DNA of 64,000 nt, taken from assembly GCA_905480425.1 (NCBI GenBank), contig CAJQQG010000013.1, positions 5,017-69,016 on the forward strand. The letters run 5' to 3'. Below, in pieces: positions 3,360 to 60,100 of the stretch. This DNA is from an uncultured Flavobacteriaceae bacterium (GTDB taxonomy: Bacteria > Bacteroidota > Bacteroidia > Flavobacteriales > Flavobacteriaceae). The translations under genes were made by a program, and so were the position numbers. The notes under the pieces were generated by a model. That model saw only the letters and a list, made by a program, of their open reading frames with translations. It had not been told where the DNA came from and did not search any database. Within the stretch, counting starts at the first letter, position 1, and every line of letters starts with the position of its first letter.

Positions 3360-3408
3360 AATATCTATTATAGATGCAAAATAAGAAATATTTTAAACAC
3401 TTTGTTGA

Positions 3409-7056: not shown

Positions 7057-7143
7057 AAGCTTAAAATTGTATGGTAAAAATAATTTATTTTGTACCGTAA
7101 TTCATCCTCAATCTTTAACCTTTTTACCTTATTTATTCACAGG

Positions 7144-8355: not shown

Positions 8356-8373
8356 CGGGTCAAAGGTATTCTT

Positions 8374-8850: not shown

Positions 8851-8853
8851 GTT

Positions 8854-9264: not shown

Positions 9265-9799
9265 TAAGTTTATTTTTAATTTTCCTCACCGCATGGTGGT
9301 ATGAAGCTTTTAGTGCTCCGATACTTGTATCAAGTATTTCTGAAATAACTTGATATGTCATTCCGTCAAAATATCTCATATTAAAAACAATTCGCTGTTT
9401 TTCTGGAAGTTTAGCAACTTCTTTTTGTAAAAAAAAAGCGGCTTCATCACCATCAAAGTATGGATCTGCAGTTAATTGATCAGCTTTAGCCTCTATCCAT
9501 TCTTGATTTTGGAGCCCCATTTTTGAGCTTTTACTGTTTATGAAGTTTATTGCTTCATTCGTTGCAATACGATACATCCAAGTATAAAGAGTACTATTAC
9601 CCTTAAATTTTTCAATATTTAAATGAATTTTAATAAAGGTATTTTGCACTACATCATTTGCATCATCATGATCAAGAACTAGCTTTCTAATGTGCCAATA
9701 TAAACGTTCTTTATATTCACTAACTAAACGTTTGAAGGCTTCTTCACGCGTTTCAGGTTCCTTTAAGGAGTTTACGAATAATGATTGTTGAATTTCCAC
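9257..9799 (-). CDS. ECF-type RNA polymerase sigma-70 factor
   Basis: Region 2 (DANDVVQNTFIKIHLNIEKFKGNSTLYTWMYRIATNEAINF) and region 4 (RIVFNMRYFDGMTYQVISEILDTSIGALKASYHHAVRKIK). The apparent start is GTG. Confidence 0.85.
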   Translation of the reverse strand: MEIQQSLFVNSLKEPETREEAFKRLVSEYKERLYWHIRKLVLDHDDANDVVQNTFIKIHLNIEKFKGNSTLYTWMYRIATNEAINFINSKSSKMGLQNQEWIEAKADQLTADPYFDGDEAAFFLQKEVAKLPEKQRIVFNMRYFDGMTYQVISEILDTSIGALKASYHHAVRKIKNKLND

Positions 9800-9845
9800 G
9801 TTTAATTACTATTTCAATCTTTTGACAACAACTAACGCAAAAAGT

Positions 9846-11669
9846 TTAATCCATGCGTTGAATTTGTACCCAATTTTTATATTGTTTATTGGAAGATAAC
9901 AATTTTTGATGATTCCCAGAGGCTATGATTTTACCTTTATCAAGTAATAAAATCACGTCTGCTTTTTTAATGGTAGAAAGTCGGTGAGCAATTACTAGTG
10001 AAGTTCGATTTTGCATTAATTTTTCAAGCGCTATTTGAACCTGTTGTTCAGCTTCTGTGTCAAGAGCTGAGGTTGCTTCATCTAAAATCAAGAAAGCAGG
10101 ATCTTTAAGCAATGCTCTTGCTATTGTAAGTCGTTGCTTTTGACCTCCTGAAAGTTTATTACCTAAATCACCAATAATAGTTTCATATTGGTTTGGAAGT
10201 TCTTTAATGAAATCATGAGCATTAGCAGCAATAGCAGCATTTTCTATTTCATCATTACTAGCATCGGGTTTTCCGATTTTCAAATTATTATAAACACTAT
10301 CATTAAATAAAATGGATTCTTGCGTTACCATACCGATGTGTTTGTAAAGACTCTTTTTTTGAATTAAATTAATGGGAATATCATCTATTGTTAGTATGCC
10401 ATTATCAACATTATAAAACCTATTAATTAAATATGTTAGTGTTGTTTTCCCACTGCCAGAAGGACCTACTAGGGCTACCATTTCACCTTTTTTTATTTCA
10501 AAAGAAATCTTATTGAGTACTGGATTTTTTTCATAACTAAAGGATACTTTATCAAACACAATACGATCTTTAAATTCAGAAAGTTTTTGAGCGTTTTTAT
10601 CATCCTCTAAATGATCTTTTACATTTAATATTTCTAAAACTCTATCAGCTGCTGCATTTCCTTTTTGAATACTATAACTAGCCTTACTAATAGATTTTGC
10701 AGGAGTAAGAATATTATAGGCTAAACCCATATATACAATAAAAGAAGTTCCAGTTATGCTTTCATCTATAAGGACCATTTTTCCTCCAAACCATAGAAGA
10801 ATACCAATGGCTGAAATACCTAAAAACTCACTTGTGGGACCTGCTAAACTTGCACGATGTAACAATTGATTTGAGAAGAGATAGAAACGATCTGTGGCTT
10901 TAAAGAATCTGTCTTTAAAATGTTCTCCTGCCGAAAAAGTTTTGATGATCTTTTGACCATTTACAGTTTCATCAATAATGGATAAAAAATCGCCTTGTTC
11001 TTCTTGTATTCTGGCTGAATGTTTTTTAAGTCTTTTTCCAATACTTGAAATCACTAAGCCTGAAATAGGGATAAAAAGTATCACAAAGAGCGTGAGCTTA
11101 AAGCTAAATAATAGCATGGCTGCTAGAGAGAAAAGAATTGTGAGGGGCTCTCTAACTAATAGTTCTAGAATTGATAAAAAAGATTGTTGAATTTCAGTTA
11201 CATCACTGGTCATTTTAGCCATTAAATCTCCTTTTCTTTTTTCATTAAAATAGGAAATAGGTAGGCTAATGATTTTAATGTATAATGCATTTCTGAGGTT
11301 TTTAAGAATTCCATTTCTCAAATAGGCAATAAAGAATAAGGCTAAGTAATTACTGATATTTTTCAATAAAAACAAGCCCAATACAAGGCTAATAACAAAA
11401 ATTAATGTTCCTTCGATGTCTTGTTCTAGTTTTGAAGAGACATAATAATTTAAACTGTCTTTCAGATACTTCTGAAGGCTTAAAATTCCCGAATAAGTTG
11501 CTGGAGTAGACTGCTTTTCGGTTGTTTTAAAAAGCACATTTAGCATAGGAATTAACGATACAAAAGAAAGCGCACTAAATAACGCGTAAAAGGCGTTGAA
11601 TAAAATATTCAAGAGTGCATAACCTTTAAAAGGAATCCCGAACTGAATTATTTTTCTGAATGGCGACAT
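9846..11669 (-). CDS. ABC exporter, fused permease/ATPase (MsbA-like)
   Basis: 607 aa with an N-terminal 6-TM domain, Walker A GPSGSGKTT, signature LSGGQKQRLTIARAL and Walker B FLILDEATSALD. Confidence 0.9.
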   Translation of the reverse strand: MSPFRKIIQFGIPFKGYALLNILFNAFYALFSALSFVSLIPMLNVLFKTTEKQSTPATYSGILSLQKYLKDSLNYYVSSKLEQDIEGTLIFVISLVLGLFLLKNISNYLALFFIAYLRNGILKNLRNALYIKIISLPISYFNEKRKGDLMAKMTSDVTEIQQSFLSILELLVREPLTILFSLAAMLLFSFKLTLFVILFIPISGLVISSIGKRLKKHSARIQEEQGDFLSIIDETVNGQKIIKTFSAGEHFKDRFFKATDRFYLFSNQLLHRASLAGPTSEFLGISAIGILLWFGGKMVLIDESITGTSFIVYMGLAYNILTPAKSISKASYSIQKGNAAADRVLEILNVKDHLEDDKNAQKLSEFKDRIVFDKVSFSYEKNPVLNKISFEIKKGEMVALVGPSGSGKTTLTYLINRFYNVDNGILTIDDIPINLIQKKSLYKHIGMVTQESILFNDSVYNNLKIGKPDASNDEIENAAIAANAHDFIKELPNQYETIIGDLGNKLSGGQKQRLTIARALLKDPAFLILDEATSALDTEAEQQVQIALEKLMQNRTSLVIAHRLSTIKKADVILLLDKGKIIASGNHQKLLSSNKQYKNWVQIQRMD

Positions 11670-47561: not shown

Positions 47562-49175
47562 ATGAGAAAATCTTTATTGTCGATAGTATCTTTTTTTGGA
47601 CTATTTACGGTAAGCTGTTCTAATATTGAATTCAATGAGATAACATCAAAAGTTGTTATTGTTCAGCCAATTGTTATACAATCTGACAATGGCAATCATC
47701 CAGCTAAAATCAATTTATCGGAAAAATTAGTAGATAGAGCATATTCAAAAGCGGATATTGACTTTCTGTATTTAGAACCTTTGTATTATAATAATACTAA
47801 AGCTAGAGAGGGTAAAATAAATTTAGACAGTATAGTTTCCCTTGCTAAAATAAACAATATTTTAAGAGGGCAAAATGATATAGTTAACATGTTTTTTGTA
47901 AATGCTATTGATGGTAATTCAGGACCCACAGGAAGAGGAATGATGAATGGGAATATAGTTTTTATAGCGCTTGGTAATGATGAAAAATCAAATAGTGGGG
48001 ATTTGGATAGTATGAATGCTTTCGTAGTTGCACATGAGGTCGGCCACAATCTTGGCTTAAAACATGTTGTTGATGATCCAAATATAAATGATTCACTTCC
48101 TAATATTCAAGGTGATGGAGATTTTAAAGACAGAATTGATCCAAAATATAGCCTTACAGATTTTCAGATTAAAGAAATATATAATAGTCCTCTAGTTCAT
48201 TCTAGGATTAGTTTTCTCAGTAAAAACGAAGCAAGTATTGCAATTTTAGATGAATCTTTTGAACCTTATTTTTCTAACCTTCAGGTTAAAGAAATATCAA
48301 CTTTTGTTCAAGAAAAAGCACCAATAGATATTGATTCTGCAAGAGTATTTGCTAAAAAGAAATTTTCTTCTGCAGTTTTAGATTTTAGCCCTGACGAAAA
48401 AGAGGTCTTGTTTTTTGTTGTAAACAAAACCAATAAATGGTTATTGGATAATGAAATTAACTTAATGGCAAATCAACCATGGAGGTTCATTAAAATCGAC
48501 AATTGGCTTTGTGGAGGTTTTGCTCATACAAGGGGTTCTTTTATCATTATAAGTCAAGCTTATCTTGATCGGTTGACAGTTGACTGGAATGCCGTTATGA
48601 GTAAAGAAAAAGAATCAAGATTAGTAACTTCATTAGGAGGTCTATTGGTTCATGAACAAATGCATTCATTACAAAGAACTTTTAAATCTAAATTTGATAG
48701 ACTTTATTCTAAAAACTGGAATTTTATAAAACATCAAGTCAAAGCCGAAAATGAAATTATAATTGATCAAGTATCGAATCCTGATGCACCAATAGCAGAA
48801 TGGATAATCCCCGACCCTAAAGACAAAAAAAAATTCTATTGGATCCGAACTTTAATTACAAAAAATGTTGATATTCCTATAATGGGAAGAGATTTTGTCG
48901 ATATAGCGTTTGAAATAAATAATAAAAACAATACTTATTCAGTGTCAAAGGTAAATGACACGTTGTCATCTATGCCTCTTTCAGATCTTGATTTTTATAA
49001 TAAATCTTTTCCTGTAAAAAGAGGTCTTGATCATCCAAATGAAATATCAGCTTATATGTTTTCTGATTTTTTTAAAGCTAGATATAATTCAAAGACCCCC
49101 TTTTTAAATAAAGATTCAATCTCAAATAATAATTCTAATTTTTTTTTAAAATGGATAAAATCAGAAATGAAATAA
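47562..49175 (+). CDS. lipoprotein with an N-terminal metzincin-like zinc protease domain (HEVGHNLGLKH) and a C-terminal domain carrying a second HExxH (HEQMH)
   Basis: Lipobox FTVSC. HEVGHNLGLKH is at nt 48033-48065 (HExxHxxGxxH) and HEQMH at nt 48651-48665. Confidence 0.6.
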   Translation: MRKSLLSIVSFFGLFTVSCSNIEFNEITSKVVIVQPIVIQSDNGNHPAKINLSEKLVDRAYSKADIDFLYLEPLYYNNTKAREGKINLDSIVSLAKINNILRGQNDIVNMFFVNAIDGNSGPTGRGMMNGNIVFIALGNDEKSNSGDLDSMNAFVVAHEVGHNLGLKHVVDDPNINDSLPNIQGDGDFKDRIDPKYSLTDFQIKEIYNSPLVHSRISFLSKNEASIAILDESFEPYFSNLQVKEISTFVQEKAPIDIDSARVFAKKKFSSAVLDFSPDEKEVLFFVVNKTNKWLLDNEINLMANQPWRFIKIDNWLCGGFAHTRGSFIIISQAYLDRLTVDWNAVMSKEKESRLVTSLGGLLVHEQMHSLQRTFKSKFDRLYSKNWNFIKHQVKAENEIIIDQVSNPDAPIAEWIIPDPKDKKKFYWIRTLITKNVDIPIMGRDFVDIAFEINNKNNTYSVSKVNDTLSSMPLSDLDFYNKSFPVKRGLDHPNEISAYMFSDFFKARYNSKTPFLNKDSISNNNSNFFLKWIKSEMK

Positions 49176-49433: not shown

Positions 49434-50354
49434 TTATTCTAAAAGAGAAGCATTATAATAAACATCTTCACGAACAATATTACCTTCTTGGTTAAAAGAC
49501 ATTTGACTGTGAACGGGCATCACTTTTATTTCTCCAGATTTTTTATCTTTCAAAGTGAATTTCATCCAAGTTAATGTAACTCCACCGTTTCCTTCGTAAT
49601 CCAAATAATCTGGATATCCAACTTCGTCAAGTGATACTATATCAAATTGGCTAAATATATTTTTTACGTTTTCAATGTGCTCATCTAATGTTTTAAAATT
49701 CTTGTCTATTAAGTTACTGTCATAGATTCTAGCTTTTTTACTAAAATCTTTAAAAGTGGCCTCCATGTCTCCATGTTCAAGATTGTAGTAAATTTGTCTT
49801 ACTGTCCCAATATTAGGATGGTCTTTATATATAGTTCCATTTTTTATAGTTTCCCTAGATAAACTCCATTTATTCCATGCTGCCTGATTATCAGACCAAA
49901 GTAACAGTCTGATTTTCTCACCACTTTTATCAAATATAAAAGTACTGTTTCTAGGTGTTTTAAGTTTAAATCCATTGTTCTTATCCCAAGCTGTTAAAAC
50001 TTGATAAGTAACAACGTGTAATCCATCTTTTTTATATTCAATTGCATCAGGATATGAAGCCCCTCTGTTTTTAAGTGATATATCAACAAAATTATTATTT
50101 ATGTATGTTGATTGCCCAACTAAATTATTAATGTCACCAGCTTTGTTGTTGGGATTGTTTGACATTGAATTCCACATTTTAAAATCTTTGGAAACTAAAG
50201 ATTTTAAAATGGCTATATCTCCTTGTTCATATGCTTTATTAAATTTTTCTGCAATATCAATAGCTGGATGTTTATCAAAAACTTTTCCATTATTCTTTTT
50301 TTGTGAAATTCCTATAATTGGAAATAAAATAAGAATTAATAATATTTTTTTCAT
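49434..50354 (-). CDS. secreted protein with two tandem NTF2/SnoaL-like domains (unknown function)
   Basis: Signal peptide and two repeats of the SnoaL-like opening pattern (IAEKFNKAYEQGDIAILKSLVSKDF.. and VRQIYYNLEHGDMEATFKDFSKKA..). Confidence 0.45.
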   Translation of the reverse strand: MKKILLILILFPIIGISQKKNNGKVFDKHPAIDIAEKFNKAYEQGDIAILKSLVSKDFKMWNSMSNNPNNKAGDINNLVGQSTYINNNFVDISLKNRGASYPDAIEYKKDGLHVVTYQVLTAWDKNNGFKLKTPRNSTFIFDKSGEKIRLLLWSDNQAAWNKWSLSRETIKNGTIYKDHPNIGTVRQIYYNLEHGDMEATFKDFSKKARIYDSNLIDKNFKTLDEHIENVKNIFSQFDIVSLDEVGYPDYLDYEGNGGVTLTWMKFTLKDKKSGEIKVMPVHSQMSFNQEGNIVREDVYYNASLLE

Positions 50355-50474
50355 GTTAAGTGATTTATGATTAATTAAGTTTAAATGTATTAAATAATAA
50401 TTTATTTTAAAGTAGTAAGTAGATTATTATACTTTCATTAAACAAGTATATATTTGTCAAAATCCGAATTAACT

Positions 50475-51350
50475 ATGAGAAACTTAGTAATAGAAAATAT
50501 TTCAAAAACTTACCCCAATAACGTAAAAGCATTAAATAATGTGTCTATTAAAATATCTAGTGGTATGTTTGGTTTACTTGGACCAAATGGAGCTGGGAAG
50601 TCATCCTTAATGAGGACTATAGCAACATTGCAGGAAGCAGATTCAGGATCAATCTTTTTTGATGACTTAAATGTTTTAGACAGCAGTAAAGAGTTTCGTC
50701 AGCAATTGGGATATCTTCCTCAAGAATTTGGAGTATACCCAAGAATAACTGCAGAACAATTATTAGATCATATTGCAACTTTGAAGGGTTTCTCCTCAAA
50801 AAAAGAAAGAAAAGAATTAGTTGACTTTCTACTTCAAAAAGTCAACTTATATGACAAGAAAAATAAAAGTGTAAAAGGTTTTTCTGGTGGAATGAAACAA
50901 AGGATTGGGATAGCACAATCATTGATAGGTAATCCTAAAATTTTAATTGTTGATGAACCAACTGCTGGACTTGATCCAGGTGAAAGAAATCGATTTTATG
51001 ACTTACTATCTGATGTTGGGGAAGATGTTATTGTAATTCTTTCAACCCACATAGTAGATGATGTTAGGGAGTTATGTACTCAAATGGCTATAATGAATCA
51101 TGGTGAAATTGTTTTTAATGGATCTCCTGATGAGGGAATAAATTCTTTAAAGGGTAAGGTTTTTCAAAAACATATATCAAAATCTGAACTTGAAACATAC
51201 AAGCAAAATCATCAAGTCATTTCAAATAAATTAATAGCGGGTAAGCCAATTATTCATGTGTTAAATAGCACTATTCCAGATAAAACTTTTAAGAAGATTG
51301 AGCCATCTCTTGAAGATGTTTTTTTCACTAAGATTCAAAACAAAAAATAA
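50475..51350 (+). CDS. ABC transporter ATP-binding protein (ABC-2/DrrA-type)
   Basis: Walker A GPNGAGKSS, Q-loop, signature FSGGMKQRIGIAQSL, Walker B ILIVDEPTAGLD and an H-loop STH. I chose the ATG at 50475 (the track starts at TTG 50454). Confidence 0.9.
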   Translation: MRNLVIENISKTYPNNVKALNNVSIKISSGMFGLLGPNGAGKSSLMRTIATLQEADSGSIFFDDLNVLDSSKEFRQQLGYLPQEFGVYPRITAEQLLDHIATLKGFSSKKERKELVDFLLQKVNLYDKKNKSVKGFSGGMKQRIGIAQSLIGNPKILIVDEPTAGLDPGERNRFYDLLSDVGEDVIVILSTHIVDDVRELCTQMAIMNHGEIVFNGSPDEGINSLKGKVFQKHISKSELETYKQNHQVISNKLIAGKPIIHVLNSTIPDKTFKKIEPSLEDVFFTKIQNKK

Positions 51351-51355
51351 TAGAT

Positions 51356-54300
51356 ATGTTCAAGATTTTTTTCCTTTCTGAACTAAAGTATAGTTTTAGA
51401 AATCCAATGGTTTATTTATTTTTTCTCATTGTTTTTTTACTAGTTTTCTTTGCAAACGTTTCAGATAATGTCTCAATTGGAGGTTCAATAGGTAATGTTT
51501 ACAGAAATGCACCAAATGTCATAACTACCTTTTCAATAATTATGACTCTTTTTGGATTATTGTTTGCCGCTGCATTTTTCAATAATTCTGCTTTAAGAGA
51601 TCACAAAAATAATTTTCAAGAAATTATTTTTTCTAAGCCCATAGATAAGTTTGGATATTTTATGGGTAAGTTTTCAGCCTCCTTACTGCTCTCTACCATT
51701 CCTTTAACTGGAGTTTTTTTCGCGGTTATAATTGGATCAAAAATTGCTCCATTAATGGGTTGGATTGAGCCTGAAAGATATGGCCCATTATATTTTCAGA
51801 CTTTCGTTTCTAATTATTTTATTTTTATTCTTCCAAATATGTTTATTGGAGGGGCAATAATTTATTCTTTAGCTCAACAATTTAAAAATACTACAGTCTC
51901 GTTTGTTGGAGCAATGTTGATTTTAGTTGGGTATTCAATAGCAGGAGAATTAACTTCAGATATTGATAATGAGAAAATTGCAGCTCTAGTTGATACTTTT
52001 GGAATCGGGACTTATAACATTACTTCTAAATATTATACCCCACTTGAGAAAAATACTCTAAATCCCTCATTATCAGGATTACTTTTATATAATAGAATTA
52101 TTTGGATTGGTCTCGCCTCTCTAATATTATTGGCTTCATATTCAAGATTTACTTTTTCTACTAAAAAAACCAAAAAGAATAAGATTAAAGCTGAAACCGT
52201 AAATAATGAATTACTAGTTTCTGTAAAATCACTTCCAGAATCTGAGATAAGTAAAGACTCTATGTTTACTCATTTTAAAAGTTTTTTTAAACTCAACATG
52301 AGTAGCGTATTTAAACATGTAACTTTTAAAATATTATTTGTCTTTAGTATTATTCAACTAATCGCAGGACTAGCTTCAGGTTATGAATATTTTGGTCTCA
52401 AATCATATCCTCTTACCAACTTAATGATTGATCAAATTAGTGGTTCTTCGGGCTTATTTATAATCATCATTTTAGTCTTTTTTAGTGGGGAATTGGTTTG
52501 GAGGGATCGTGATGTACAAATAAATGAGGTCATTGACTCAACTCCCCATTCTTCATTAGTCCCACTTTTCTCAAAAGCTTTATCACTACTTTCTTTATCT
52601 ATATTAATTCATTTTGCCCTTGTTTTTGTAACTATAATTTATCAATTAGTAATGGGCTATACTGAGATTGAATTTGCTTTATATCTCAAAGACTTTATGT
52701 ATAATTTATTTCCTTTTTACTTTACTACATGTGCATCTGTTGTTGCAATTCAAGTGATTGTGAATAATAAATATATAGGTTATGTCGTGTCAGTCATTGT
52801 CCTATTAGTCTTGGATATCATATTGGTAGTTTTAGACATAAGTTCTAATATGATTTCATTTGCCGCGACTCCATATATGATATATTCTGATTTAAATGGT
52901 TTTGGGCCAAGCAATATAGGAGTCTTTTGGTTTAGTGTTTACTGGATGTTATTTGCCATGTTTTTATTTACTTTATCAGGATTTATTTGGAATAGGGGTA
53001 CAGTAAAAAATTTTATAGAACGACTTAATGGTTTTAAGAGTAATACCAGTAGGCCTTATGTAATTATAGTTTCCTTAATAGGAGTGTTTTGGATAACTGT
53101 ATCTTTTTTTGTGTATTATAATTCTCAGATATTAAACACATATAATTCAATCGATAGATCGGAAGAATTGGCTGTTTCTTATGAGAACATCTACAAAAAA
53201 TTTAATACTCTTCCTCTTCCTAAAATAATTGAGGCAAAATACAATATTGATATTTTTCCAAAAAAGAAAAGTGCTGATGTATTAGCCCTGCTAACTGTTA
53301 TAAATGACAGTAAAAAACCAATTGATAGTATTCTTTTAAACGTAAACAAACAATGGGATCTGACTTTTGATTTCCCTAATGCATCCATAATTAGTAAAGA
53401 TGATGATCATGGTGTTCATTTTTATGGTATTAATCCTCCTATGCTTCCAGGTGACACATTGATTTTGAAAATCAATAATAAGTTTGAAACTAAAGGCTTT
53501 TCTAATGGTGGTGAGACAACTAGTATAGTTAAAAATGGTTCTTTTTTAAATAATTTTGAAATTTTGGCTGACGTAGGTTATAATTCAAATAAAGAATTAA
53601 GTGATAAAAATAAAAGAACTAAGTCTGGTTTACCTTCAAAGGAACGAATGCCAGAATTAGAAATTGATTGTGGTGTGAATTGTAACAAAAACTACTTAAC
53701 GAATGGTTTTTCAGATTATATTAATGTAGAAACTATAATTTCTACAAGTAGTGACCAAATCGCGATAGCTCCCGGATCATTAATTAAAGAGTGGGTTCAA
53801 GATGAAAGAAAATATTATCAGTATAAAGTTGATCATCCATCTCAAAACTTTTATTCTTTTATATCAGCAGATTATAAAATAGCTAAACGAAAATGGAATG
53901 AAATCGATATTGAGATTTATTACGATTCAAAACATTCCGTAAATATTGAAATGATGCTAGATGCTGTTGAGAGATCTCTTGAGTATTACACTGAAAATTT
54001 TGGACCCTATTACCATAAGCAATGTAGAATAATTGAATTTCCAAGATTTTCTAATTTCGCACAAGCTTTTCCTGGAACCATGCCTTATTCTGAATCGTTT
54101 GGTTTTATAATTGACCTTGAAGATGAAGAGGATAATAATGTGATTGATGCTGTAATTGCCCATGAAATGGCACATCAATGGTGGGCTCACCAAGTAGTTG
54201 GAGCAGATATGCAAGGTGGTACTCTTTTAAGCGAGGCCTTTTCAGAATATTCATCTTTAATGACTCTCAAGAAAATGGCAAAAACACCAATGAAAATGCG

Positions 54301-54934
54301 GGAAATGTTAAAATATGATCACGATAGATATTTAAGGGGCAGGTCTGGTGAACGTGAAAAGGAATTACCTCTATATAAAGTAGAAAACCAAAGCTATATT
54401 CATTACGGAAAAGGGAGCGTTATTCTTTACGCTTTACAAGATTACATAGGAGAAGATAAAGTCAATAGTTCAATGAAAGATTTTTTAGAGAAGTACAGGT
54501 ATAAAACTCCTTATCCAACCTCATTAGATTTTTTAGATATATTAGAATCAAAAATCCCAGATTCTTTGAATTATTTAATTGATGATTGGTTTAAAGAAAT
54601 CACCCTTTATGATAATAGATTAAAAACAGCTACCGCAAAAAAACTAGAAAATGGGAAATATGAAGTTAAAATTGAAATTGCTGCATCAAAAATAAAGGCT
54701 GACTCTTTAGGTAATGAAATAGCAGTAACTTTAAATGAATGGATTGATATAGGTGTCTTTTCAGATATGGATGAAAAAGAGCTTATTTATCAAAAAAGAG
54801 TTAGGGTAAATGATACTTTGATGAATTTTTCTATGGTAGTCGATTCATTACCATTAAAGGCAGGTATTGACCCTAGACATATTTTAATTGATAGAGTATT
54901 TGATGATAACATAAAAACAGTTAATATCCAATAG
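51356..54934 (+). CDS. fusion protein: internally duplicated ABC-2-type permease (about 13 TM) + C-terminal M1-family (gluzincin) zinc peptidase domain
   Basis: 1192 aa. Residues 1-590 contain about 13 hydrophobic segments in two halves split by a K-rich linker (STKKTKKNKIK). The C-terminal half carries HEMAHQWW (nt 54161-54175) with a downstream Glu (LLSEAFSEY), as in M1 peptidases. It starts 5 nt after the ATPase gene. Confidence 0.8.
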   Translation: MFKIFFLSELKYSFRNPMVYLFFLIVFLLVFFANVSDNVSIGGSIGNVYRNAPNVITTFSIIMTLFGLLFAAAFFNNSALRDHKNNFQEIIFSKPIDKFGYFMGKFSASLLLSTIPLTGVFFAVIIGSKIAPLMGWIEPERYGPLYFQTFVSNYFIFILPNMFIGGAIIYSLAQQFKNTTVSFVGAMLILVGYSIAGELTSDIDNEKIAALVDTFGIGTYNITSKYYTPLEKNTLNPSLSGLLLYNRIIWIGLASLILLASYSRFTFSTKKTKKNKIKAETVNNELLVSVKSLPESEISKDSMFTHFKSFFKLNMSSVFKHVTFKILFVFSIIQLIAGLASGYEYFGLKSYPLTNLMIDQISGSSGLFIIIILVFFSGELVWRDRDVQINEVIDSTPHSSLVPLFSKALSLLSLSILIHFALVFVTIIYQLVMGYTEIEFALYLKDFMYNLFPFYFTTCASVVAIQVIVNNKYIGYVVSVIVLLVLDIILVVLDISSNMISFAATPYMIYSDLNGFGPSNIGVFWFSVYWMLFAMFLFTLSGFIWNRGTVKNFIERLNGFKSNTSRPYVIIVSLIGVFWITVSFFVYYNSQILNTYNSIDRSEELAVSYENIYKKFNTLPLPKIIEAKYNIDIFPKKKSADVLALLTVINDSKKPIDSILLNVNKQWDLTFDFPNASIISKDDDHGVHFYGINPPMLPGDTLILKINNKFETKGFSNGGETTSIVKNGSFLNNFEILADVGYNSNKELSDKNKRTKSGLPSKERMPELEIDCGVNCNKNYLTNGFSDYINVETIISTSSDQIAIAPGSLIKEWVQDERKYYQYKVDHPSQNFYSFISADYKIAKRKWNEIDIEIYYDSKHSVNIEMMLDAVERSLEYYTENFGPYYHKQCRIIEFPRFSNFAQAFPGTMPYSESFGFIIDLEDEEDNNVIDAVIAHEMAHQWWAHQVVGADMQGGTLLSEAFSEYSSLMTLKKMAKTPMKMREMLKYDHDRYLRGRSGEREKELPLYKVENQSYIHYGKGSVILYALQDYIGEDKVNSSMKDFLEKYRYKTPYPTSLDFLDILESKIPDSLNYLIDDWFKEITLYDNRLKTATAKKLENGKYEVKIEIAASKIKADSLGNEIAVTLNEWIDIGVFSDMDEKELIYQKRVRVNDTLMNFSMVVDSLPLKAGIDPRHILIDRVFDDNIKTVNIQ

Positions 54935-55026: not shown

Positions 55027-55944
55027 ATGAAATTAATCCCTTTTACACTTTTGATTATACTAACCCATACAGCTGTTATGGGTCAACAAATTATCTCTCT
55101 CTGGCCTGAAGGTATTCCCAATCAAAACGTTTCCAAGGAAGAAGAAAAAATAATACACACTAATATTGTCAAAATAGAAAACATTCAGGCGCCCTCCCTA
55201 GAAGTTTATCTTCCTTCAAAAGCTAATCATACCGGAAAAGCAGTGGTCATTTGTCCCGGAGGAGGATATAGATTTCTTGCCTATGACTGGGAGGGTACGG
55301 ATATTGCAAAATGGTTTAATTCAAAAGGAATTGCAGCTTTTGTTCTTAAATATCGACTCCCAACATCACCCACCTTAATAAATCCCCAATGGGCACCCTT
55401 GCAAGATGCACAACGCGCAATCCGTATTGTGCGTCAAAATGCAGAACAATGGAATATTGATGGTTCTCAAATTGGCGTTATGGGTTTTTCAGCAGGAGGT
55501 CATCTGGCTTCCACTTTAGGCACGCACTATAATGAAGACACCTTAAAAGGAATTAATACCGATCCCATCAATTCAATAAGTGCTCGCCCTGATTTTATGA
55601 TGCTTATTTATCCAGTTATTACCTTTGATAAAAAATATTATCATGGTGGATCAAAAAATGCACTTGTTGGTGAAAATGCTAAGCAAGAAACCGTTGATTA
55701 TTTTTCCAATAACCTTCAAGTTACTAAAGACACACCTTCTACGTTCTTAGTTCATACTGCAGATGATAAAGCAGTCCCTGTAGCAAACAGCATATTGTTT
55801 TATGAAGCTTTAATAAAACAAAAAGTCCCTGCTGAGATGCATTTGTACCCCGAAGGTGGACATGGGTATTCTTTTGCAATTGGAAAGGGTCGCCTTGAAG
55901 GATGGACCGATCGTTTATATGAGTGGATTCGTGAATTAGAATGA
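55027..55944 (+). CDS. secreted alpha/beta-hydrolase esterase (Abhydrolase_3/BD-FAE-like)
   Basis: Signal peptide, oxyanion CPGGGY, nucleophile GFSAGGH, then a C-terminal D..H (TADDKAV..., GGHGY). Confidence 0.75.
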   Translation: MKLIPFTLLIILTHTAVMGQQIISLWPEGIPNQNVSKEEEKIIHTNIVKIENIQAPSLEVYLPSKANHTGKAVVICPGGGYRFLAYDWEGTDIAKWFNSKGIAAFVLKYRLPTSPTLINPQWAPLQDAQRAIRIVRQNAEQWNIDGSQIGVMGFSAGGHLASTLGTHYNEDTLKGINTDPINSISARPDFMMLIYPVITFDKKYYHGGSKNALVGENAKQETVDYFSNNLQVTKDTPSTFLVHTADDKAVPVANSILFYEALIKQKVPAEMHLYPEGGHGYSFAIGKGRLEGWTDRLYEWIRELE

Positions 55945-57060: not shown

Positions 57061-59511
57061 ATGAAAAATATTGTAATTACTTTATTAATAACGGGGACTT
57101 ATCTTTTAAATGCTCAAGAAGAATTAGGATTTCAGATTCCTAAGAAAGAGCTATTGGATCTAATAGATGTTGATTTAGCTCCAACTGTATTACGAAACAC
57201 GAAAAACACTGTTATGGTGCTTTTATCGCGTTCTACTTTCAAAAGTATAGCTGATTTATCAAGAAAGGAACTCCGCATTGCAGGGCTTCGAGTGGATCCA
57301 AAACGTTTTATTGGAAGTAGAACTACCTATTATAATAAAGTTGAATTAGTAGATTTTGAGAAAGGAGAGACACCTTTGCTTGTAGATGGACTTCCAAATA
57401 AACCTCAATTGACAAACTTTATCTGGTCACCAGATGAAAAAATGATTGCAATGACTCACACTTCAGATTCAAGTGTTGAGCTTTGGATTTTAGATGTTAC
57501 TACTAGAAAAGCAAAAAAACTGAGTTCCCAACCAATTAATGCAACTATGGGGAATAGTATAAATTGGTTCAAAAGTAGTAAAGAGTTGTTAGTGAAATTA
57601 ATACCTAAAGACAGAAAGGATATTATTGATCAATCTGTAGTTGTTCCAACGGGTCCAAAAGTCACTGAAAATAATGGAGAAAAAGCTCAAAACCGAACAT
57701 ATCAAGATCTGATTAAGAATCCTACAGATGCTAAAAATTTCACTCAACTGAGTAGATCAGAAATTTATAAGATTGATCTGAATGGCAATAAAAATCATTT
57801 TTTAGACGCACGGATGTATAGAGATATAAGTGTGTCTCCAGATGGAAAATACGTAATGGTATCGTTTGTAAAGGAACCTTTTTCTTATCTAGTTCCTTAT
57901 TATCGTTTCCCAACTGAAACTCGTGTATATGATTTGGATGCACAATTGATTAAATTAATATCTGATAATCCACTTCAGGAGGTCCTTCCAAAAGGATTTA
58001 TGGCGGTAAGTACCAATAAACGAGACATAGGATGGCGCAAAGATAAGCCTTCTACTATTTATTATGTGGAGGCACTAGACAAAGGGAACCCTGAAATTAA
58101 AGTTCCTTATAGAGATGCATTGTATGAGTGGGAAGCTCCTTTTGGCCAAAAGTCAATTTTATTGACAAAAACAATAAACCGATACGCTGGTATAATTTGG
58201 GGGAACGATTTTAATGCAATTATCTATGACAGATGGTGGAATAGTCGGAATTCAAAAACATATATATTCTCACCCTCTAAGCCTAATATTCCAGCTAGAG
58301 TTATTGTTGATCGGAATTATCAAGACAGATATAGTGATCCAGGTGACTTTGTCACTCGAAAGGGAAAGTACGATGAAAACATCTTGGCCTTAGATGGAAA
58401 TAACGCTTTTCTTTTGGGTGATGGTTTTTCTGAAAAAGGGCAATTTCCATTTTTGGATCAGATTAATTTGAAATCAAATAAAAAAAATCGCACCTATCAA
58501 TCGACCTATACAGATAAATTTGAACAGCTTTATGATTATGACATTATTGAAAAAAAATTGAGTATTCGAATCGAATCTAAAAATGAATACCCAAATTATT
58601 TCACGAGAAGTATTGATAAAACAAATACACTAAAACAACAAACCTTTTTTAAAAACCCATTTAAAAATCTTGAAAATGTTGGGAAAGAACTCATTTCATA
58701 TAAACGGAAAGATGGACTAGATTTAAGTGGAATTCTTTATACTCCAGAAGGTTTTGATAAAAATAATCCAAAACAATTACCCATGATTTTATGGGCGTAT
58801 CCAAGAGAATATAAAGATAAATCTAGTGCTGCTCAAAAAATAAATAATCCCAATCGATTTTTATATCCAAGTTGGGGTTCTCCCATTTATTGGGTAACAC
58901 AGGGGTATCTCGTTTTAGATCGAGCTACTTTCCCAATTATCGGAGAAGGAACGGATGAACCTAATGACAGTTTTCGGACACAATTAGTTGCCAATGCAGA
59001 AGCTGCGATTAATGCTGTTGTTGAGAAAGGGTATGCTGATAGAAATAGAATAGCTGTCGGCGGACATAGTTATGGAGCATTTATGGTAGCTAATTTGCTT
59101 AGCCATTCTGATTTATTTGCTGCAGGAATAGCAAGAAGTGGTGCTTATAACAGAACATTAACACCATTTGGTTTTCAAAGTGAATCTAGATCTTATTGGG
59201 AAGCCCCAGAAGTATATTATACTATGTCACCTTTTATGCATGCTGATAAAATGAAAACTCCATTATTATTAGTTCATGGTGAAGCAGACAATAATTCAGG
59301 AACTTACCCTTTACAGAGTGAGCGATATTATAATGCTCTAAAAGGTCTTGGAGCGACAACAAGATTAGTTATGTTTCCAAAAGAAAGCCACGGATATAGA
59401 GCGAAAGAAACAATTCTTCATCTCATTTGGGAACAAGATCAATGGTTAGAAAAATACGTTAAAAACAGAAAACCTTTTTTAAAATTAACAAAAATCAAAC
59501 CTAAGGGATAG
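57061..59511 (+). CDS. S9-family serine peptidase (prolyl oligopeptidase/dipeptidyl-peptidase type) with N-terminal beta-propeller region
   Basis: 816 aa with a signal peptide, nucleophile GGHSYGAFM, and C-terminal LLLVHGEADNN and SHGY motifs. Confidence 0.85.
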   Translation: MKNIVITLLITGTYLLNAQEELGFQIPKKELLDLIDVDLAPTVLRNTKNTVMVLLSRSTFKSIADLSRKELRIAGLRVDPKRFIGSRTTYYNKVELVDFEKGETPLLVDGLPNKPQLTNFIWSPDEKMIAMTHTSDSSVELWILDVTTRKAKKLSSQPINATMGNSINWFKSSKELLVKLIPKDRKDIIDQSVVVPTGPKVTENNGEKAQNRTYQDLIKNPTDAKNFTQLSRSEIYKIDLNGNKNHFLDARMYRDISVSPDGKYVMVSFVKEPFSYLVPYYRFPTETRVYDLDAQLIKLISDNPLQEVLPKGFMAVSTNKRDIGWRKDKPSTIYYVEALDKGNPEIKVPYRDALYEWEAPFGQKSILLTKTINRYAGIIWGNDFNAIIYDRWWNSRNSKTYIFSPSKPNIPARVIVDRNYQDRYSDPGDFVTRKGKYDENILALDGNNAFLLGDGFSEKGQFPFLDQINLKSNKKNRTYQSTYTDKFEQLYDYDIIEKKLSIRIESKNEYPNYFTRSIDKTNTLKQQTFFKNPFKNLENVGKELISYKRKDGLDLSGILYTPEGFDKNNPKQLPMILWAYPREYKDKSSAAQKINNPNRFLYPSWGSPIYWVTQGYLVLDRATFPIIGEGTDEPNDSFRTQLVANAEAAINAVVEKGYADRNRIAVGGHSYGAFMVANLLSHSDLFAAGIARSGAYNRTLTPFGFQSESRSYWEAPEVYYTMSPFMHADKMKTPLLLVHGEADNNSGTYPLQSERYYNALKGLGATTRLVMFPKESHGYRAKETILHLIWEQDQWLEKYVKNRKPFLKLTKIKPKG

Positions 59512-59644: not shown

Positions 59645-60100
59645 TTATGGACTTTTGATCATAAAGTTAAAATCATCTTCTTTTAGTTTTAAAATAATAT
59701 TTTCATCTTGCTTTATTCCTTCAATTTTAGGCATGAGTAATTCAAATAGATTGCTAATTTGATGGTGATCAGTTTTTGTTTTAGGGTCAGGCATATAGAT
59801 CAATCCTTTAAAAACACTTTCTTTAAATATTAATTGAACTTCGAAAAAATAAAAATTTTCTGGGGGTATATATTTTGACCAATTAATTTCTTTGAAATAA
59901 TATTTATAGTTTTTAATTGAGAATTGATAAGGAGATATATCGATATTAATTGTCCCAACGAAAAAAGCACTTAGATCAAGTCCTCTTTTTTTGAAAAATG
60001 GCATCTGTAGTCTTAATGTTCCCTTTGGATATCTAATATCATTTCCTTTCCCAGAAGCCACTCCATGTCCAGAGATTACTTTACCAGTAATTGAAATCAT
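59645..60100 (-). CDS. small protein resembling the archaeal CTP-dependent riboflavin kinase fold (tentative)
   Basis: 151 aa. The motifs ITGKVISGHGVASG, VGTINID and PDPKTKTDHH...FELLMP follow the GxVxSGxGxG / GT[LI]N / PxKTxH...E pattern I recall for PF01982-type kinases. This is a by-eye comparison only. Confidence 0.35.
   Translation of the reverse strand: MISITGKVISGHGVASGKGNDIRYPKGTLRLQMPFFKKRGLDLSAFFVGTINIDISPYQFSIKNYKYYFKEINWSKYIPPENFYFFEVQLIFKESVFKGLIYMPDPKTKTDHHQISNLFELLMPKIEGIKQDENIILKLKEDDFNFMIKSP

What the first reader, a model, noticed from the sequence alone, without database searches (positions are those of the whole stretch)
50475..54934. ABC ATPase + internally duplicated ABC-2 permease fused to an M1-type zinc peptidase: possible ATP-gated cell-envelope peptidase
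The two genes are 5 nt apart. The second encodes one 1192-aa polypeptide. Its N-terminal ~590 aa read as about 13 hydrophobic helices in two similar halves, joined by a Lys-rich cytoplasmic-looking linker. Its C-terminal ~600 aa carry the gluzincin site HEMAH (nt 54161-54175) with a Glu about 19-20 residues later, as in M1 aminopeptidases. An odd TM count would place the peptidase outside the cytoplasm. I do not see the canonical GAMEN exopeptidase motif. A candidate equivalent upstream of the zinc site reads FPGTMPYSE, so substrate handling may differ from classic aminopeptidase N. A covalent link between a transporter-like engine and a hydrolase recalls mechanotransmission ABC systems (FtsEX, MacB, LolCDE), where cytoplasmic ATP hydrolysis drives extracytoplasmic work. 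Alternatively the protein could couple peptide trimming to export or import. I believe fusions like this are labelled automatically in Bacteroidota genomes, but I know of no experimental characterisation.
Basis: partly seen in the sequence, partly recalled or inferred. Interest (0 to 1): 0.7.

Follow-up and report, generated by a model that had tools for sequence, protein, structure and literature searches.

The report
ABC exporter fused to zinc peptidase
Two adjacent genes encode an ATP-driven membrane transporter with a zinc protease built onto its outer (periplasmic) face; the design is conserved in hundreds of bacterial species and labelled by annotation pipelines, but nobody appears to have studied it, so its substrate is unknown.

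Summary
An ABC ATPase gene (50475-51350) lies 5 nt before a 1192-aa gene (51356-54934). That gene encodes two six-helix membrane domains, a 13th helix, and an M1-fold zinc peptidase.

The fusion is native. It is full length in 80 of 80 genome loci, and at least 592 species carry it (Bacteroidota, Acidobacteriota, Planctomycetota, Gemmatimonadota). The ATPase sits directly upstream in 76 of 77 evaluable loci, and no other neighbour is conserved. Three apparent "split" copies are frameshifts at arbitrary positions.

Charge distribution, a co-varying Cys pair and the fold assignment all place the peptidase in the periplasm. It sits on a connector of fixed length (30 aa in 79 of 80).

- The membrane part has the type V (ABC-2) fold, closest to Rv1217c, NosY and PmtCD. 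It is not the MacB/FtsX/LolCDE type.
- The GAMEN position is FAQAF (residues 901-905), not FPGTMPYSE.

HExxH, the third zinc-binding Glu and the catalytic Tyr are near-invariant. The Glu that anchors the substrate N-terminus and the capping domain IV are both missing, so a classical aminopeptidase is unlikely.

Most likely this is an ATP-coupled machine that extracts a substrate and cleaves it. The coupling and the substrate are inferred, not shown. No publication was found.

The parts
50449..50456 (+). Possible Bacteroidota-type -7 promoter element (TAtaTTTG), 18 nt before the ATG at 50475. It overlaps the alternative TTG start at 50454.
   Evidence: Read directly from the sequence. This is a consensus match only, in AT-rich DNA. 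The sigma-70 scan was not above background: 38 sites against 30.4 +/- 6.1 in shuffles. The TAnnTTTG consensus is from my own knowledge.
50475..51350 (+). ABC ATPase (291 aa), the nucleotide-binding subunit, expected to act as a homodimer.
   Evidence: Pfam ABC_tran E=7.7e-32. The nearest NCBIfam models are drrA (1.9e-55) and GldA (7.3e-53), both below their cut-offs. The motifs are canonical: Walker A GPNGAGKS at 50580-50603, Q-loop at 50715-50726, signature FSGG at 50880-50891, Walker B plus catalytic Glu ILIVDE at 50940-50957, H-loop at 51042-51050, and C-terminal LEDVF at 51309-51323. An orthologue sits directly upstream of the fusion in 76 of 77 evaluable loci at 55-82% identity.
51351..51355 (+). 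5-nt spacer between the two genes (TAGAT).
   Evidence: In the orthologous loci, the end of the ATPase tblastn match lies about 7 to 320 nt before the start of the fusion match, always on the same strand.
51356..54934 (+). Fusion gene, 1192 aa: TMD1, linker, TMD2, TM13, connector, M1-fold peptidase.
   Evidence: It is full length and colinear in 80 of 80 genome loci down to 32-37% identity.
51359..52147 (+). Connecting helix 1 (aa 2-15) plus membrane domain 1 (TM1-TM6, aa 17-264). Includes the post-TM2 motif RD..x.E[IV]I.S.P (aa 81-95) and short periplasmic helices between TM5 and TM6 (aa 206-232).
   Evidence: Hydropathy. AF2 helices. Foldseek matches to PmtCD, NosY and CcmB with probability 0.94-1.0; TM-score normalised to the target is 0.55-0.70 for PmtCD and NosY and 0.49 for CcmB. 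Sub-threshold ABC2_membrane_3/4 hits.
52148..52258 (+). Lys/Arg-rich cytoplasmic linker between the two membrane domains (aa 265-301). Length is variable and pLDDT is low.
   Evidence: Mean net charge +6.3 for aa 265-321 (linker plus connecting helix 2) across 80 orthologues. The aa 265-301 segment is 32-53 aa long. pLDDT is below 50.
52259..52987 (+). Connecting helix 2 (aa 302-320) plus membrane domain 2 (TM7-TM12, aa 322-544), with the matching post-TM8 motif RDRDVQINEVIDSTP (aa 383-397).
   Evidence: hhalign aligns aa 77-262 with aa 379-542 colinearly, E=0.003.
52988..53131 (+). Positively charged cytoplasmic loop (aa 545-565) and the 13th transmembrane helix (aa 566-592), which carries the chain to the periplasm.
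   Evidence: Loop mean net charge +4.7, and 21 aa long in 75 of 80. TM13 has hydropathy 2.44 and is 26-27 aa long in all 80.
53132..53221 (+). Fixed-length connector (aa 593-622, mostly one helix) from TM13 to the first beta-strand of the peptidase.
   Evidence: Exactly 30 aa in 79 of 80 orthologues. E610 and P622 are invariant, and N594 and Y609 nearly so; Y588 and N589, at the end of TM13 just before the connector, are also near-invariant.
53222..53926 (+). M1 N-terminal beta-sandwich domain (aa 623-857), with a CxxxC pair at C772/C776 (nt 53669-53683).
   Evidence: AF2 strands. Foldseek alignments to IRAP, ERAP and PepN span about 600-670 columns. C772 and C776 are both present in 51 orthologues, both absent in 29, and never present singly.
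53927..54589 (+). M1 catalytic (thermolysin-like) domain (aa 858-1078). Key sites: FAQAF at the GAMEN position (54056-54070), HEMAH (54161-54175), zinc ligand Glu960 (54233-54235), catalytic Tyr1017 (54404-54406).
   Evidence: Pfam PF01433 at 62.3 bits. ERAP2 alignment. All these residues are near-invariant in 80 orthologues from several phyla. This is the most conserved region: 36% of columns are at least 90% conserved.
54590..54931 (+). C-terminal beta-sandwich (aa 1079-1192), corresponding to M1 domain III. The protein ends here, with no helical domain IV.
   Evidence: AF2 secondary structure. Solved M1 enzymes of 850-900 aa align over only about 600-670 columns.

Best explanation
This is a self-contained two-gene type V (ABC-2) ABC machine. 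Two copies of the ATPase dock on one polypeptide. That polypeptide supplies both six-helix membrane domains, a 13th helix that crosses back to the periplasm, and an M1-fold zinc metallopeptidase. The peptidase is held on a short connector of fixed length directly over the periplasmic face of the transporter.

The enzyme is catalytically competent but is probably not a classical aminopeptidase. It lacks the GAMEN glutamate that grips a free N-terminus, and it lacks the domain IV lid.

Most likely mechanism (inferred): ATP binding and hydrolysis drive the membrane domains to expel a hydrophobic or amphipathic peptide-like substrate from the membrane or cytoplasm, and the substrate passes straight into the attached peptidase cleft. 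Export or extraction would then be coupled to cleavage at the outer face of the inner membrane.

Shown here: the architecture, the conservation, the partnership with the ATPase, and the intact catalytic residues. Inferred from strong indirect evidence: the periplasmic location. Inferred only: the coupling and the identity of the substrate.
For: Architecture and native fusion:
- ORFs and junction.
- 80 of 80 genome loci are full length, and at least 592 species carry the fusion.
- The membrane half alone finds 927 clusters (50% identity) at E<=1e-30. Among the best 150 listed, the long ones are about 1190-1210 aa.
- The three 'split' copies are frameshifts at aa ~615, ~519 and ~197, not at the domain boundary.

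Dedicated ATPase:
- It lies directly upstream on the same strand in 76 of 77 evaluable loci, at 55-82% identity.
- Its motifs are canonical.
- No other neighbour is conserved.

Type V fold:
- Top Foldseek hits are Rv1217c (8k1p/8k1m, both halves, 611 columns), PmtCD, NosY and CcmB, followed by weaker matches to ABCA7, ABCH and ABCG2. No type VII hit appears.
- Rv1217c-Rv1218c has the same layout of one ATPase gene plus one double-membrane-domain gene (PMC11406275).

Periplasmic peptidase:
- 13 helices.
- Family-wide net charge is +1.7 at the N-terminus, +6.3 in the linker and +4.7 in the loop before TM13.
- C772 and C776 co-vary perfectly, 51 both present and 29 both absent.

Rigid mounting:
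- The connector is 30 aa in 79 of 80, and periplasmic loop 11-12 is 27 aa in 80 of 80. The cytoplasmic linker varies from 32 to 53 aa.

Active but atypical enzyme:
- H936, E937, H940, E960 and Y1017 are near-invariant, and FAQ[A/S]F replaces GAMEN.
- The catalytic domain is the most conserved region.

Precedent for peptide substrates in this fold: PmtCD exports phenol-soluble modulins.
Against: - No experiment and no multimer or PAE model links ATP turnover to proteolysis. I had no model coordinates, so I could not check whether the active-site cleft faces the transporter exit.
- Foldseek E-values for the membrane part are weak (0.02-0.3), although probabilities are 0.94-1.0 for the type V hits.
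- The periplasmic loops of the transporter are not clearly more conserved than its helices. That test gave no extra support for an interface.
- There is no clue to the substrate. No neighbour such as a precursor peptide, regulator or outer-membrane partner is conserved. A LytTR two-component pair lies next to the module in only 4 of 80 loci.
- One locus (L039) lacks an adjacent ATPase.
Confidence: 0.4

Rival explanations
1. Pure mechanotransmission. Nothing crosses the membrane. The ATP cycle only moves the periplasmic face of the membrane domains, which opens or closes (gates) the mounted peptidase. The transporter surface would play the part of the missing domain IV lid. The substrate would be a periplasmic or envelope peptide.
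For: - Each half matches NosY. In NosDFY a type V engine acts on a periplasmic partner instead of pumping a solute (my own knowledge of that system).
- The connector has a fixed length.
- Domain IV is absent. In other M1 enzymes that domain forms the lid.
- The catalytic domain is very highly conserved, which suggests one universal envelope substrate.
Against: - Most type V systems, including the closest whole-architecture match Rv1217c-Rv1218c and PmtCD, do move substrates.
- No partner or substrate is encoded nearby.
- No structural evidence was available on how the lid position would be filled.
Confidence: 0.25
2. The transporter and the peptidase work independently. The membrane part is an ordinary exporter, and it merely anchors an ecto-peptidase at the membrane surface, much as the single helix of aminopeptidase N or IRAP does.
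For: - Membrane-anchored M1 ectoenzymes are common; IRAP and APN are among the fold hits.
- The periplasmic transporter loops show no conservation excess.
Against: - A 12-helix ABC transporter is a costly anchor.
- The fusion is never split at the domain boundary across at least four phyla.
- The connector length is invariant while the cytoplasmic linker length varies.
- The ATPase is even more conserved than the fusion itself.
Confidence: 0.15
3. Nutrient uptake. The periplasmic peptidase captures and cuts imported oligopeptides, and the membrane domains import the products. The peptidase would stand in for a substrate-binding protein, in phyla that have few classical ABC importers.
For: - The hosts are protein-degrading heterotrophs, and the window neighbourhood is rich in secreted hydrolases.
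- No substrate-binding protein gene is adjacent.
Against: - The fold matches are all exporters, extractors or mechanotransducers. To my knowledge, type V bacterial importers are not established.
- The N-terminus-anchoring Glu of GAMEN is lost, which argues against an amino-acid-releasing aminopeptidase.
- The window neighbours are not conserved with the module.
Confidence: 0.1
4. The fusion is an artefact, or the M1 domain is cytoplasmic or catalytically dead.
For: - A few database copies are annotated as two genes.
- Pfam does not call the membrane domains above its cut-off.
Against: - Those copies are frameshifts at arbitrary positions.
- 80 of 80 genome loci are intact.
- The catalytic residues are near-invariant.
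- TM13, the charge pattern and the Cys-pair co-variation all argue for a periplasmic location.
Confidence: 0.03

Closest known systems
Rv1217c-Rv1218c of Mycobacterium tuberculosis (type V ABC exporter; PDB 8K1M/8K1P series; PMC11406275)
   Same: - One ATPase gene (acting as a homodimer) plus one polypeptide carrying two non-identical six-helix type V membrane domains.
- It is the top Foldseek hit and spans both halves: 611 columns, probability 1.0, TM-score 0.43-0.48.
- It has connecting helices before TM1 and TM7 and coupling helices after TM2 and TM8. The model here has helices at the matching positions before TM1 and TM7 (aa 2-15, 302-320) and conserved motifs after TM2 and TM8 (aa 81-95, 383-397).
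   Different: - Rv1217c has no 13th helix and no extracytoplasmic enzyme.
- Sequence identity is only 10-11%.
- It is an actinobacterial drug (rifampicin) exporter.
- The loops between TM1 and TM2 are short here, whereas in Rv1217c they form a periplasmic gate.
NosDFY(L) copper-delivery ABC complex (PDB 7O0Y, 7ZNQ, 7QBA)
   Same: - The NosY fold matches each half: TM-score to target 0.55-0.70, probability 0.99-1.0.
- It is a type V engine whose output is work on a periplasmic protein domain (my own knowledge of the system).
   Different: - NosD is a separate beta-helix protein, not a fused peptidase.
- NosY is a homodimer.
- Its function is metal-centre assembly, not proteolysis.
PmtCD phenol-soluble-modulin exporter (PDB 6XJH, 9Q2N)
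   Same: - Type V fold match: TM-score to target 0.58-0.67.
- Its substrates are amphipathic peptides (described as a PSM exporter in PMC11406275).
   Different: - It has no peptidase.
- It is a homodimeric half-transporter from Firmicutes.
M1 family zinc aminopeptidases (PepN, ERAP1/2, IRAP, APN, PfA-M1)
   Same: - Pfam PF01433 is above its cut-off.
- The folds of domains I-III match: probability 1.0, about 600-670 columns.
- HExxH plus a downstream Glu zinc ligand, and the Y-x-K-G catalytic Tyr, are present.
- IRAP and APN are also membrane-anchored ectoenzymes.
   Different: - GAMEN is replaced by FAQ[A/S]F, so there is no N-terminus-binding Glu.
- The spacing is HExxH-X19-E instead of X18.
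- There is no helical domain IV.
- Identity is 12-15%.
- It is anchored through a whole ABC transporter at its N-terminus.
PCATs, the peptidase-containing ABC transporters (for example PCAT1, ComA)
   Same: A protease is covalently fused to an ABC exporter, with cleavage coupled to export. This is a resemblance of concept, from my own knowledge.
   Different: - The PCAT protease is a C39 cysteine peptidase on the cytoplasmic side, at the N-terminus.
- PCATs are type IV exporters with a fused ATPase domain.
- No C39 or type IV signal was found here.
   Same: The idea that cytoplasmic ATP hydrolysis powers extracytoplasmic work. FtsEX controls cell-wall hydrolases.
   Different: - Type VII proteins have four helices per subunit and a periplasmic domain between TM1 and TM2.
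- Their hydrolases are separate proteins.
- No FtsX/MacB_PCD Pfam hit and no such fold hit was found.

Membership tests
Peptidase family M1 (Pfam PF01433 / MEROPS M1) | Match to the family HMM above the curated cut-off | tested here: met
   PF01433 E=6.5e-17, 62.3 bits against a 27.7 cut-off, residues 868-1078 covering the whole 218-position model. NCBIfam pepN_strep_liv scores only 47 bits against a 591 cut-off, so it is not an aminopeptidase N equivalog.
Peptidase family M1 (Pfam PF01433 / MEROPS M1) | Zinc site HExxH-X18-E | tested here: inconclusive
   HEMAH at 936-940 and E960 are present and near-invariant. The spacing is X19, with a one-residue insertion relative to ERAP2. The ligands are present; the canonical spacing is not.
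Peptidase family M1 (Pfam PF01433 / MEROPS M1) | GxMEN exopeptidase motif, whose Glu binds the substrate alpha-amino group | tested here: not met
   The aligned position reads F901-A-Q-A-F905. Across 80 orthologues it is FAQ[A/S]F: A in 73 and S in 9 at the Glu position.
Peptidase family M1 (Pfam PF01433 / MEROPS M1) | Catalytic Tyr in the Y-x-K-G context | tested here: met
   Y1017-G-K-G aligns with ERAP2 'Y-N-K-G'. Y1017 is conserved in 82 of the 85 aligned sequences.
Peptidase family M1 (Pfam PF01433 / MEROPS M1) | N-terminal beta-sandwich plus thermolysin-like catalytic domain fold | tested here: met
   Foldseek against IRAP, ERAP1/2 and PepN: E about 1e-16, probability 1.0, 600-670 aligned columns.
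Peptidase family M1 (Pfam PF01433 / MEROPS M1) | C-terminal helical (ARM/HEAT-like) domain IV capping the active site. It is typical of long M1 enzymes but not universal. | tested here: not met
   The protein ends after a 114-aa beta-sandwich (aa 1079-1192), and no helical domain is present.
Type V (ABC-2) ABC exporter membrane domains | Match to the ABC2_membrane Pfam models above their cut-offs | tested here: not met
   The whole protein gives no hit. The separate halves score 17-18.5 bits against cut-offs of 27-31.6. Some orthologues carry precomputed PF12730 or PF12698 hits.
Type V (ABC-2) ABC exporter membrane domains | Fold: six helices per domain, an N-terminal connecting helix, a coupling helix after TM2, and short extracytoplasmic helices between TM5 and TM6 | tested here: met
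   The AF2 model (pLDDT 76, pTM 0.73) has helices at 2-15 and 302-320 before TM1 and TM7, and short helices at 206-232. The top Foldseek hits are type V proteins (Rv1217c, PmtCD, NosY, CcmB), followed by weaker matches to ABCA7, ABCH and ABCG2, with some MATE and other non-ABC transporters interleaved at low probability; the top type V hits have probability 0.94-1.0 and TM-score to target of about 0.5-0.7. The E-values are weak (0.02-0.3). The feature list comes from PMC11406275.
Type V (ABC-2) ABC exporter membrane domains | Partner ATPase of the DrrA/ABC-2 type with intact catalytic motifs | tested here: met
   The best NCBIfam hits are the drrA and GldA subfamilies, both below their equivalog cut-offs. 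Walker A, Q-loop, signature, Walker B plus Glu, and H-loop are all present. It is syntenic in 76 of 77 loci.
Type V (ABC-2) ABC exporter membrane domains | ATP-dependent export of a substrate | not testable with these tools
   This needs reconstitution or genetics.
Type VII mechanotransmission ABC (MacB/FtsX/LolC/E) | Four-helix FtsX-type domain with a large periplasmic domain between TM1 and TM2 | tested here: not met
   There are six helices per domain, and the TM1-TM2 loop is only about 17 aa. There is no FtsX/MacB_PCD Pfam hit and no such structure among the fold hits.
PCAT (peptidase-containing ABC transporter) | N-terminal cytoplasmic C39 cysteine peptidase fused to a type IV exporter with an in-chain ATPase domain | tested here: not met
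   No Peptidase_C39 or ABC_membrane hit was found. The peptidase is a C-terminal metallopeptidase predicted to be periplasmic, and the ATPase is a separate gene.
Anti-phage defence systems (PADLOC) | Match of the fusion protein to any defence-system model | tested here: not met
   The fusion has 0 hits. The ATPase shows only generic P-loop/ABC similarity. No phage record carries the fusion.

The most novel reading that the evidence does not exclude
This would be the first ABC machine whose cytoplasmic ATP cycle directly feeds or gates a covalently attached extracytoplasmic protease. It would act as an inner-membrane 'extract-and-cleave' device. Examples of what it might clear or process are signal-peptide remnants, membrane-active peptides, or N-terminally blocked or lipidated peptides that need no free amino terminus. 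It would use an M1 fold re-purposed from exopeptidase to an open-cleft enzyme, and it would be conserved as a housekeeping module across Bacteroidota, Acidobacteriota, Planctomycetota and Gemmatimonadota.
Probability: 0.3. Interest if true: 0.8.

Novelty: new variant of a known kind. Interest (0 to 1): 0.6.

Why it matters
ABC systems that do extracytoplasmic work (FtsEX, LolCDE, NosDFY, Lpt) have changed how envelope biogenesis is understood. In all of them the effector is a separate protein.

Here the effector, a protease, is part of the same chain. Stoichiometry and geometry are therefore fixed, and coupling can be tested cleanly with two point mutants: Walker B E161Q in the ATPase and E937A in the HExxH site of the fusion.

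The module is widespread. At least 592 species genomes carry it, and the membrane half alone finds about 900 clusters at 50% identity. It is strongly conserved in phyla that dominate marine and soil organic-matter turnover, yet it has no known function.

It also shows an M1 enzyme that has lost both features enforcing aminopeptidase behaviour while keeping its catalytic core under strong selection. That would widen the known chemistry or substrate range of a heavily studied protease family.

Tried and rejected
- **Literature.** Ten full-text searches ([rejected as an error], 22, 23, 34, 38, 40, 50, 56, 57, 59) found no paper on the fusion. I recall that the transporter classification database (TCDB) lists a 'peptidase-fused functionally uncharacterized ABC2' family, but I could not verify this. 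Treat it as unverified.
- **Internal duplication by sequence.** BLASTP was not significant. hhalign gave only E=0.003 with probability 10%. The claim is kept only on fold grounds.
- **Conserved neighbours.** I looked for partners such as a precursor peptide, regulator or outer-membrane factor. None was found. A LytTR two-component pair is adjacent in only 4 of 80 loci.
- **Natural split-gene variants.** I followed up about 600-aa database proteins and plasmid loci annotated as two genes. All three cases examined are frameshifts.
- **Transporter-peptidase interface.** I tested whether the periplasmic loops of the transporter are unusually conserved. They show no clear excess.
- **Defence system or mobile element.** PADLOC gave no hit for the fusion, and no phage carries it. 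A few copies lie on large, mostly non-mobilizable replicons.
- **Promoter and terminator scans.** Not above background.
- **Active-site orientation.** I could not measure it, because model coordinates and PAE are not exposed by the tools.
- **Second N-terminus-binding Glu.** I could not locate the domain I equivalent (E121 in E. coli PepN), because no alignment reached that region.

Full report
**1. Observation**

The window carries two same-strand ORFs at the stated place. The first runs 50454/50475..51350. The second runs 51356..54934 and encodes 1192 aa. The junction reads TAA-TAGAT-ATG, a 5-nt gap.

The ATG at 50475 is the more likely start of the first gene. Orthologues begin at the equivalent Met (one search shows the L001 ATPase, MSHLALKNLSKTY...). 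The alternative TTG lies inside a TAtaTTTG box (50449-50456) that resembles the Bacteroidota -7 promoter element. That is a consensus match only (the consensus is from my own knowledge).

Gene 1 is a canonical ABC ATPase:
- Pfam ABC_tran, E=7.7e-32.
- The nearest NCBIfam models are the drrA and GldA subfamilies, both below their cut-offs.
- Walker A, Q-loop, FSGG signature, Walker B with its catalytic Glu, and the H-loop are all intact.

Gene 2 has one Pfam domain above its cut-off. This is Peptidase_M1 at residues 868-1078, 62.3 bits against 27.7.

Glu960 lies 20 residues after His940.

**2. The membrane half**

Hydropathy finds 6 + 6 + 1 hydrophobic helices. A linker rich in Lys and Arg lies between the two sets, and a positively charged loop precedes the 13th helix.

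Sequence evidence that the two halves are duplicates is weak:
- BLASTP gives E=0.59.
- Profile-profile comparison gives E=0.003 over 159 colinear columns.
- Both halves carry the motif RD-x6-E-[IV]-I-x-S-x-P after their second helix (aa 81-95 and 383-397). This is where type V transporters have the coupling helix.

Pfam ABC2_membrane models are only sub-threshold, at 17-18.5 bits.

An AlphaFold2 model of residues 1-600 has pLDDT 76.3 and pTM 0.73. I searched it against the PDB:
- The best hit is Rv1217c (8k1p/8k1m), aligned across both halves.
- Each half then matches PmtCD, NosY and CcmB, followed by weaker matches to ABCA7, ABCH and ABCG2. All of these are type V (ABC-2) proteins.
- Probabilities are 0.94-1.0 and TM-scores to target about 0.5-0.7 for the leading type V hits, but E-values are weak (0.02-0.3).
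- No MacB/FtsX-type structure appears.

PMC11406275 confirms that Rv1217c is two type V membrane domains in one polypeptide, served by a homodimer of the separately encoded ATPase Rv1218c. That is the same gene architecture as here, minus TM13 and the peptidase.

**3. The peptidase half**

The full-length model has pLDDT 74.8 and pTM 0.65. It shows these elements in order:
- TM13 (aa 566-592).
- One helix (aa 599-616).
- A beta-sandwich (aa 623-857).
- The catalytic domain (aa 858-1078).
- A final beta-sandwich (aa 1079-1192).

Foldseek matches IRAP, ERAP1/2 and PepN at probability 1.0, over about 600-670 columns, at 12-15% identity. Those enzymes are 850-900 aa long, and their helical domain IV has no counterpart here.

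HMMER's alignment to ERAP2 places GAMEN opposite F901-A-Q-A-F905. The model has a beta-strand at 902-905, as expected for the GAMEN strand. The same alignment shows a one-residue insertion, giving HExxH-X19-E, and it matches Y1017-G-K-G to the catalytic Tyr.

In 80 orthologues reaching down to 32-37% identity, H936, E937, H940, E960, Y1017 and the motif FAQ[A/S]FPGTMPYSE are all near-invariant. The catalytic domain is the most conserved part of the protein. In it 36% of columns are at least 90% conserved, against 0-24% (mostly 5-15%) in the other regions.

From established knowledge of the M1 family, the GAMEN Glu binds the substrate's free alpha-amino group, and domain IV closes the cavity. 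Losing both while keeping the catalytic machinery points to an active enzyme that is not a classical aminopeptidase. That conclusion is an inference.

**4. Is the fusion real, and what goes with it?**

A protein search returned 684 hits. The best 120 are almost all 1169-1211 aa long and 56-97% identical. NCBI names some of them 'ABC transporter permease/M1 family aminopeptidase'.

The 80 loci retrieved all match colinearly, 77 of them over essentially the full length (query residues 1-9 to 1185-1192); the other three end earlier (at residues 1084, 1108 and 1169), at least two of them because the contig ends. They include Bacteroidota, Acidobacteriota, Planctomycetota and Gemmatimonadota.

The membrane half alone finds 927 clusters (50% identity) at E<=1e-30. 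Among the best 150 listed, the long ones are about 1190-1210 aa.

The ATPase lies directly upstream on the same strand in 76 of the 77 loci that have enough upstream sequence, at 55-82% identity. The exception is L039. There the flanks hold DUF4143, Abi_2 and SocA-Panacea genes, which looks like an insertion or rearrangement.

No other neighbour, from this window or elsewhere, recurs with the pair.

I checked three candidates, and each is a frameshift at an arbitrary internal position:
- L081, at residues 614-616.
- A Sphingomonas plasmid, at residues 517-521.
- A Spirosoma plasmid, near residue 197.

None splits at the TM13/peptidase boundary, and the ATPase is upstream in all three.

The module is absent from phages. 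It is found on a few large, mostly non-mobilizable replicons. It matches no defence-system model.

**5. Topology and mounting**

Type V membrane domains start with a cytoplasmic connecting helix, so the N-terminus is inside. Twelve helices return the chain to the cytoplasm, and TM13 takes it out.

Family-wide charge agrees:
- Mean net charge is +1.7 at the N-terminus.
- It is +6.3 in the inter-domain linker.
- It is +4.7 in the loop before TM13.
- The predicted outer loops are neutral or acidic.

In the ectodomain, Cys772 and Cys776 (CxxxC) are both present in 51 orthologues, both absent in 29, and never present singly. That is the pattern expected of a disulfide in an oxidising compartment.

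Segment lengths point to a fixed geometry:
- The connector from TM13 to the first beta-strand is exactly 30 residues in 79 of 80 orthologues. E610 and P622 are invariant, and N594 and Y609 nearly so.
- Periplasmic loop 11-12 is 27 residues in 80 of 80.
- The cytoplasmic linker ranges from 32 to 53 residues.

I infer that the peptidase is held in a fixed position over the transporter, not on a flexible leash. A direct test for an interface gave no clear signal, because the periplasmic loops are not more conserved than the helices. I had no coordinates or PAE to check which way the cleft faces.

**6. Mechanism**

Shown:
- A two-gene, self-contained type V ABC system.
- A dedicated, catalytically intact ATPase.
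- A catalytically intact but atypical M1 domain fused after a 13th helix.

Strongly inferred: the peptidase is periplasmic and rigidly mounted.

Inferred only: ATP-driven movements of the membrane domains are coupled to proteolysis.

I rank the explanations as follows:
- Substrate hand-over, meaning extraction or export of a hydrophobic or amphipathic peptide into the cleft: 0.40. Most type V systems move lipophilic or amphipathic substrates, PmtCD moves peptides, and the enzyme no longer needs a free N-terminus.
- Gating without transport, as in NosDFY: 0.25.
- Anchor only: 0.15.
- Uptake: 0.10.
- Artefact, or a cytoplasmic or dead domain: 0.03.

The substrate is unknown. The very high conservation of the catalytic domain across phyla, and the lack of any linked precursor gene, suggest a common envelope or housekeeping substrate rather than a lineage-specific secreted peptide. 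That is speculation.

**7. Comparison with known systems, and novelty**

By function, the system is closest in concept to ABC machines that do extracytoplasmic work. By membership:
- The membrane part is a type V exporter, with Rv1217c-Rv1218c as the nearest solved architecture. It is not type VII like FtsEX, MacB or LolCDE.
- The enzyme belongs to the M1 fold and Pfam family, but it fails the GxMEN criterion and lacks domain IV.
- PCATs are the only characterised covalent fusions of a peptidase to an ABC transporter. They differ in protease class, side of the membrane, position in the chain, and fold.

Annotation pipelines label the architecture. From unverified memory, TCDB lists it as functionally uncharacterised. 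No publication on it was found in ten full-text searches.

I rate it a new variant of a known kind. It is real, widespread and experimentally tractable, with the mechanism still open. Interest 0.6.

Noticed in passing
L028 (Aquimarina algiphila) 173-4715 and 7092-11615; also L025, L060, L065: Aquimarina algiphila carries two tandem ATPase-fusion modules. The second fusion is only 32% identical to the window protein. The two modules are separated by a divergently oriented LytTR response regulator and histidine kinase. The same two-component pair lies just upstream of the module in 4 of 80 loci, which hints at regulated expression in some lineages.
   Followed up: partly
L039 (Lewinellaceae MAG) 1-6800: This is the only evaluable locus without an adjacent ATPase. 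The fusion is flanked by a DUF4143 fragment upstream and by Abi_2 and SocA/Panacea (toxin-antitoxin or abortive-infection type) genes downstream. This suggests an insertion or rearrangement.
   Followed up: partly
L083 (Sphingomonas sp. R1 plasmid pR1a) 3110-7589: The module occurs in an alphaproteobacterium on a 257-kb plasmid, next to a TolC/RND efflux operon. The fusion gene there is frameshifted at about residue 519 and is annotated as two CDS. It may be a decaying horizontal acquisition.
   Followed up: partly
window 47562-49175 (+): A 537-aa predicted lipoprotein carries two HExxH motifs (HEVGH and HEQMH). Its only Pfam hit is a weak Reprolysin_3 match. It may be an uncharacterised double metallopeptidase. 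It is not conserved next to the module.
   Followed up: no
window 49434-50354 (-) and 59645-60100 (-): A 306-aa secreted-looking protein, divergently transcribed from the ATPase, and a 151-aa protein both have no Pfam match.
   Followed up: no
window 55027-55944 (+) and 57061-59511 (+): A signal-peptide-bearing BD-FAE/esterase and an 816-aa S9 prolyl-oligopeptidase-family protein lie downstream. The neighbourhood is rich in hydrolases, but none of these genes is syntenic with the module elsewhere.
   Followed up: partly
L078 (contig binned as 'Patescibacteria group bacterium'): A complete module (39% identity) sits on a 4.6-kb contig assigned to Patescibacteria. This is probably a binning error, since every other host is a diderm from other phyla.
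   Followed up: no
window 54161-54235 (fusion aa 936-960): The zinc-ligand spacing is HExxH-X19-E. From memory, that is the spacing of thermolysin (M4), not the X18 of M1. An extra invariant His (H945) lies in the motif HEMAHQWWAHQ. The meaning of either feature is unknown.
   Followed up: no
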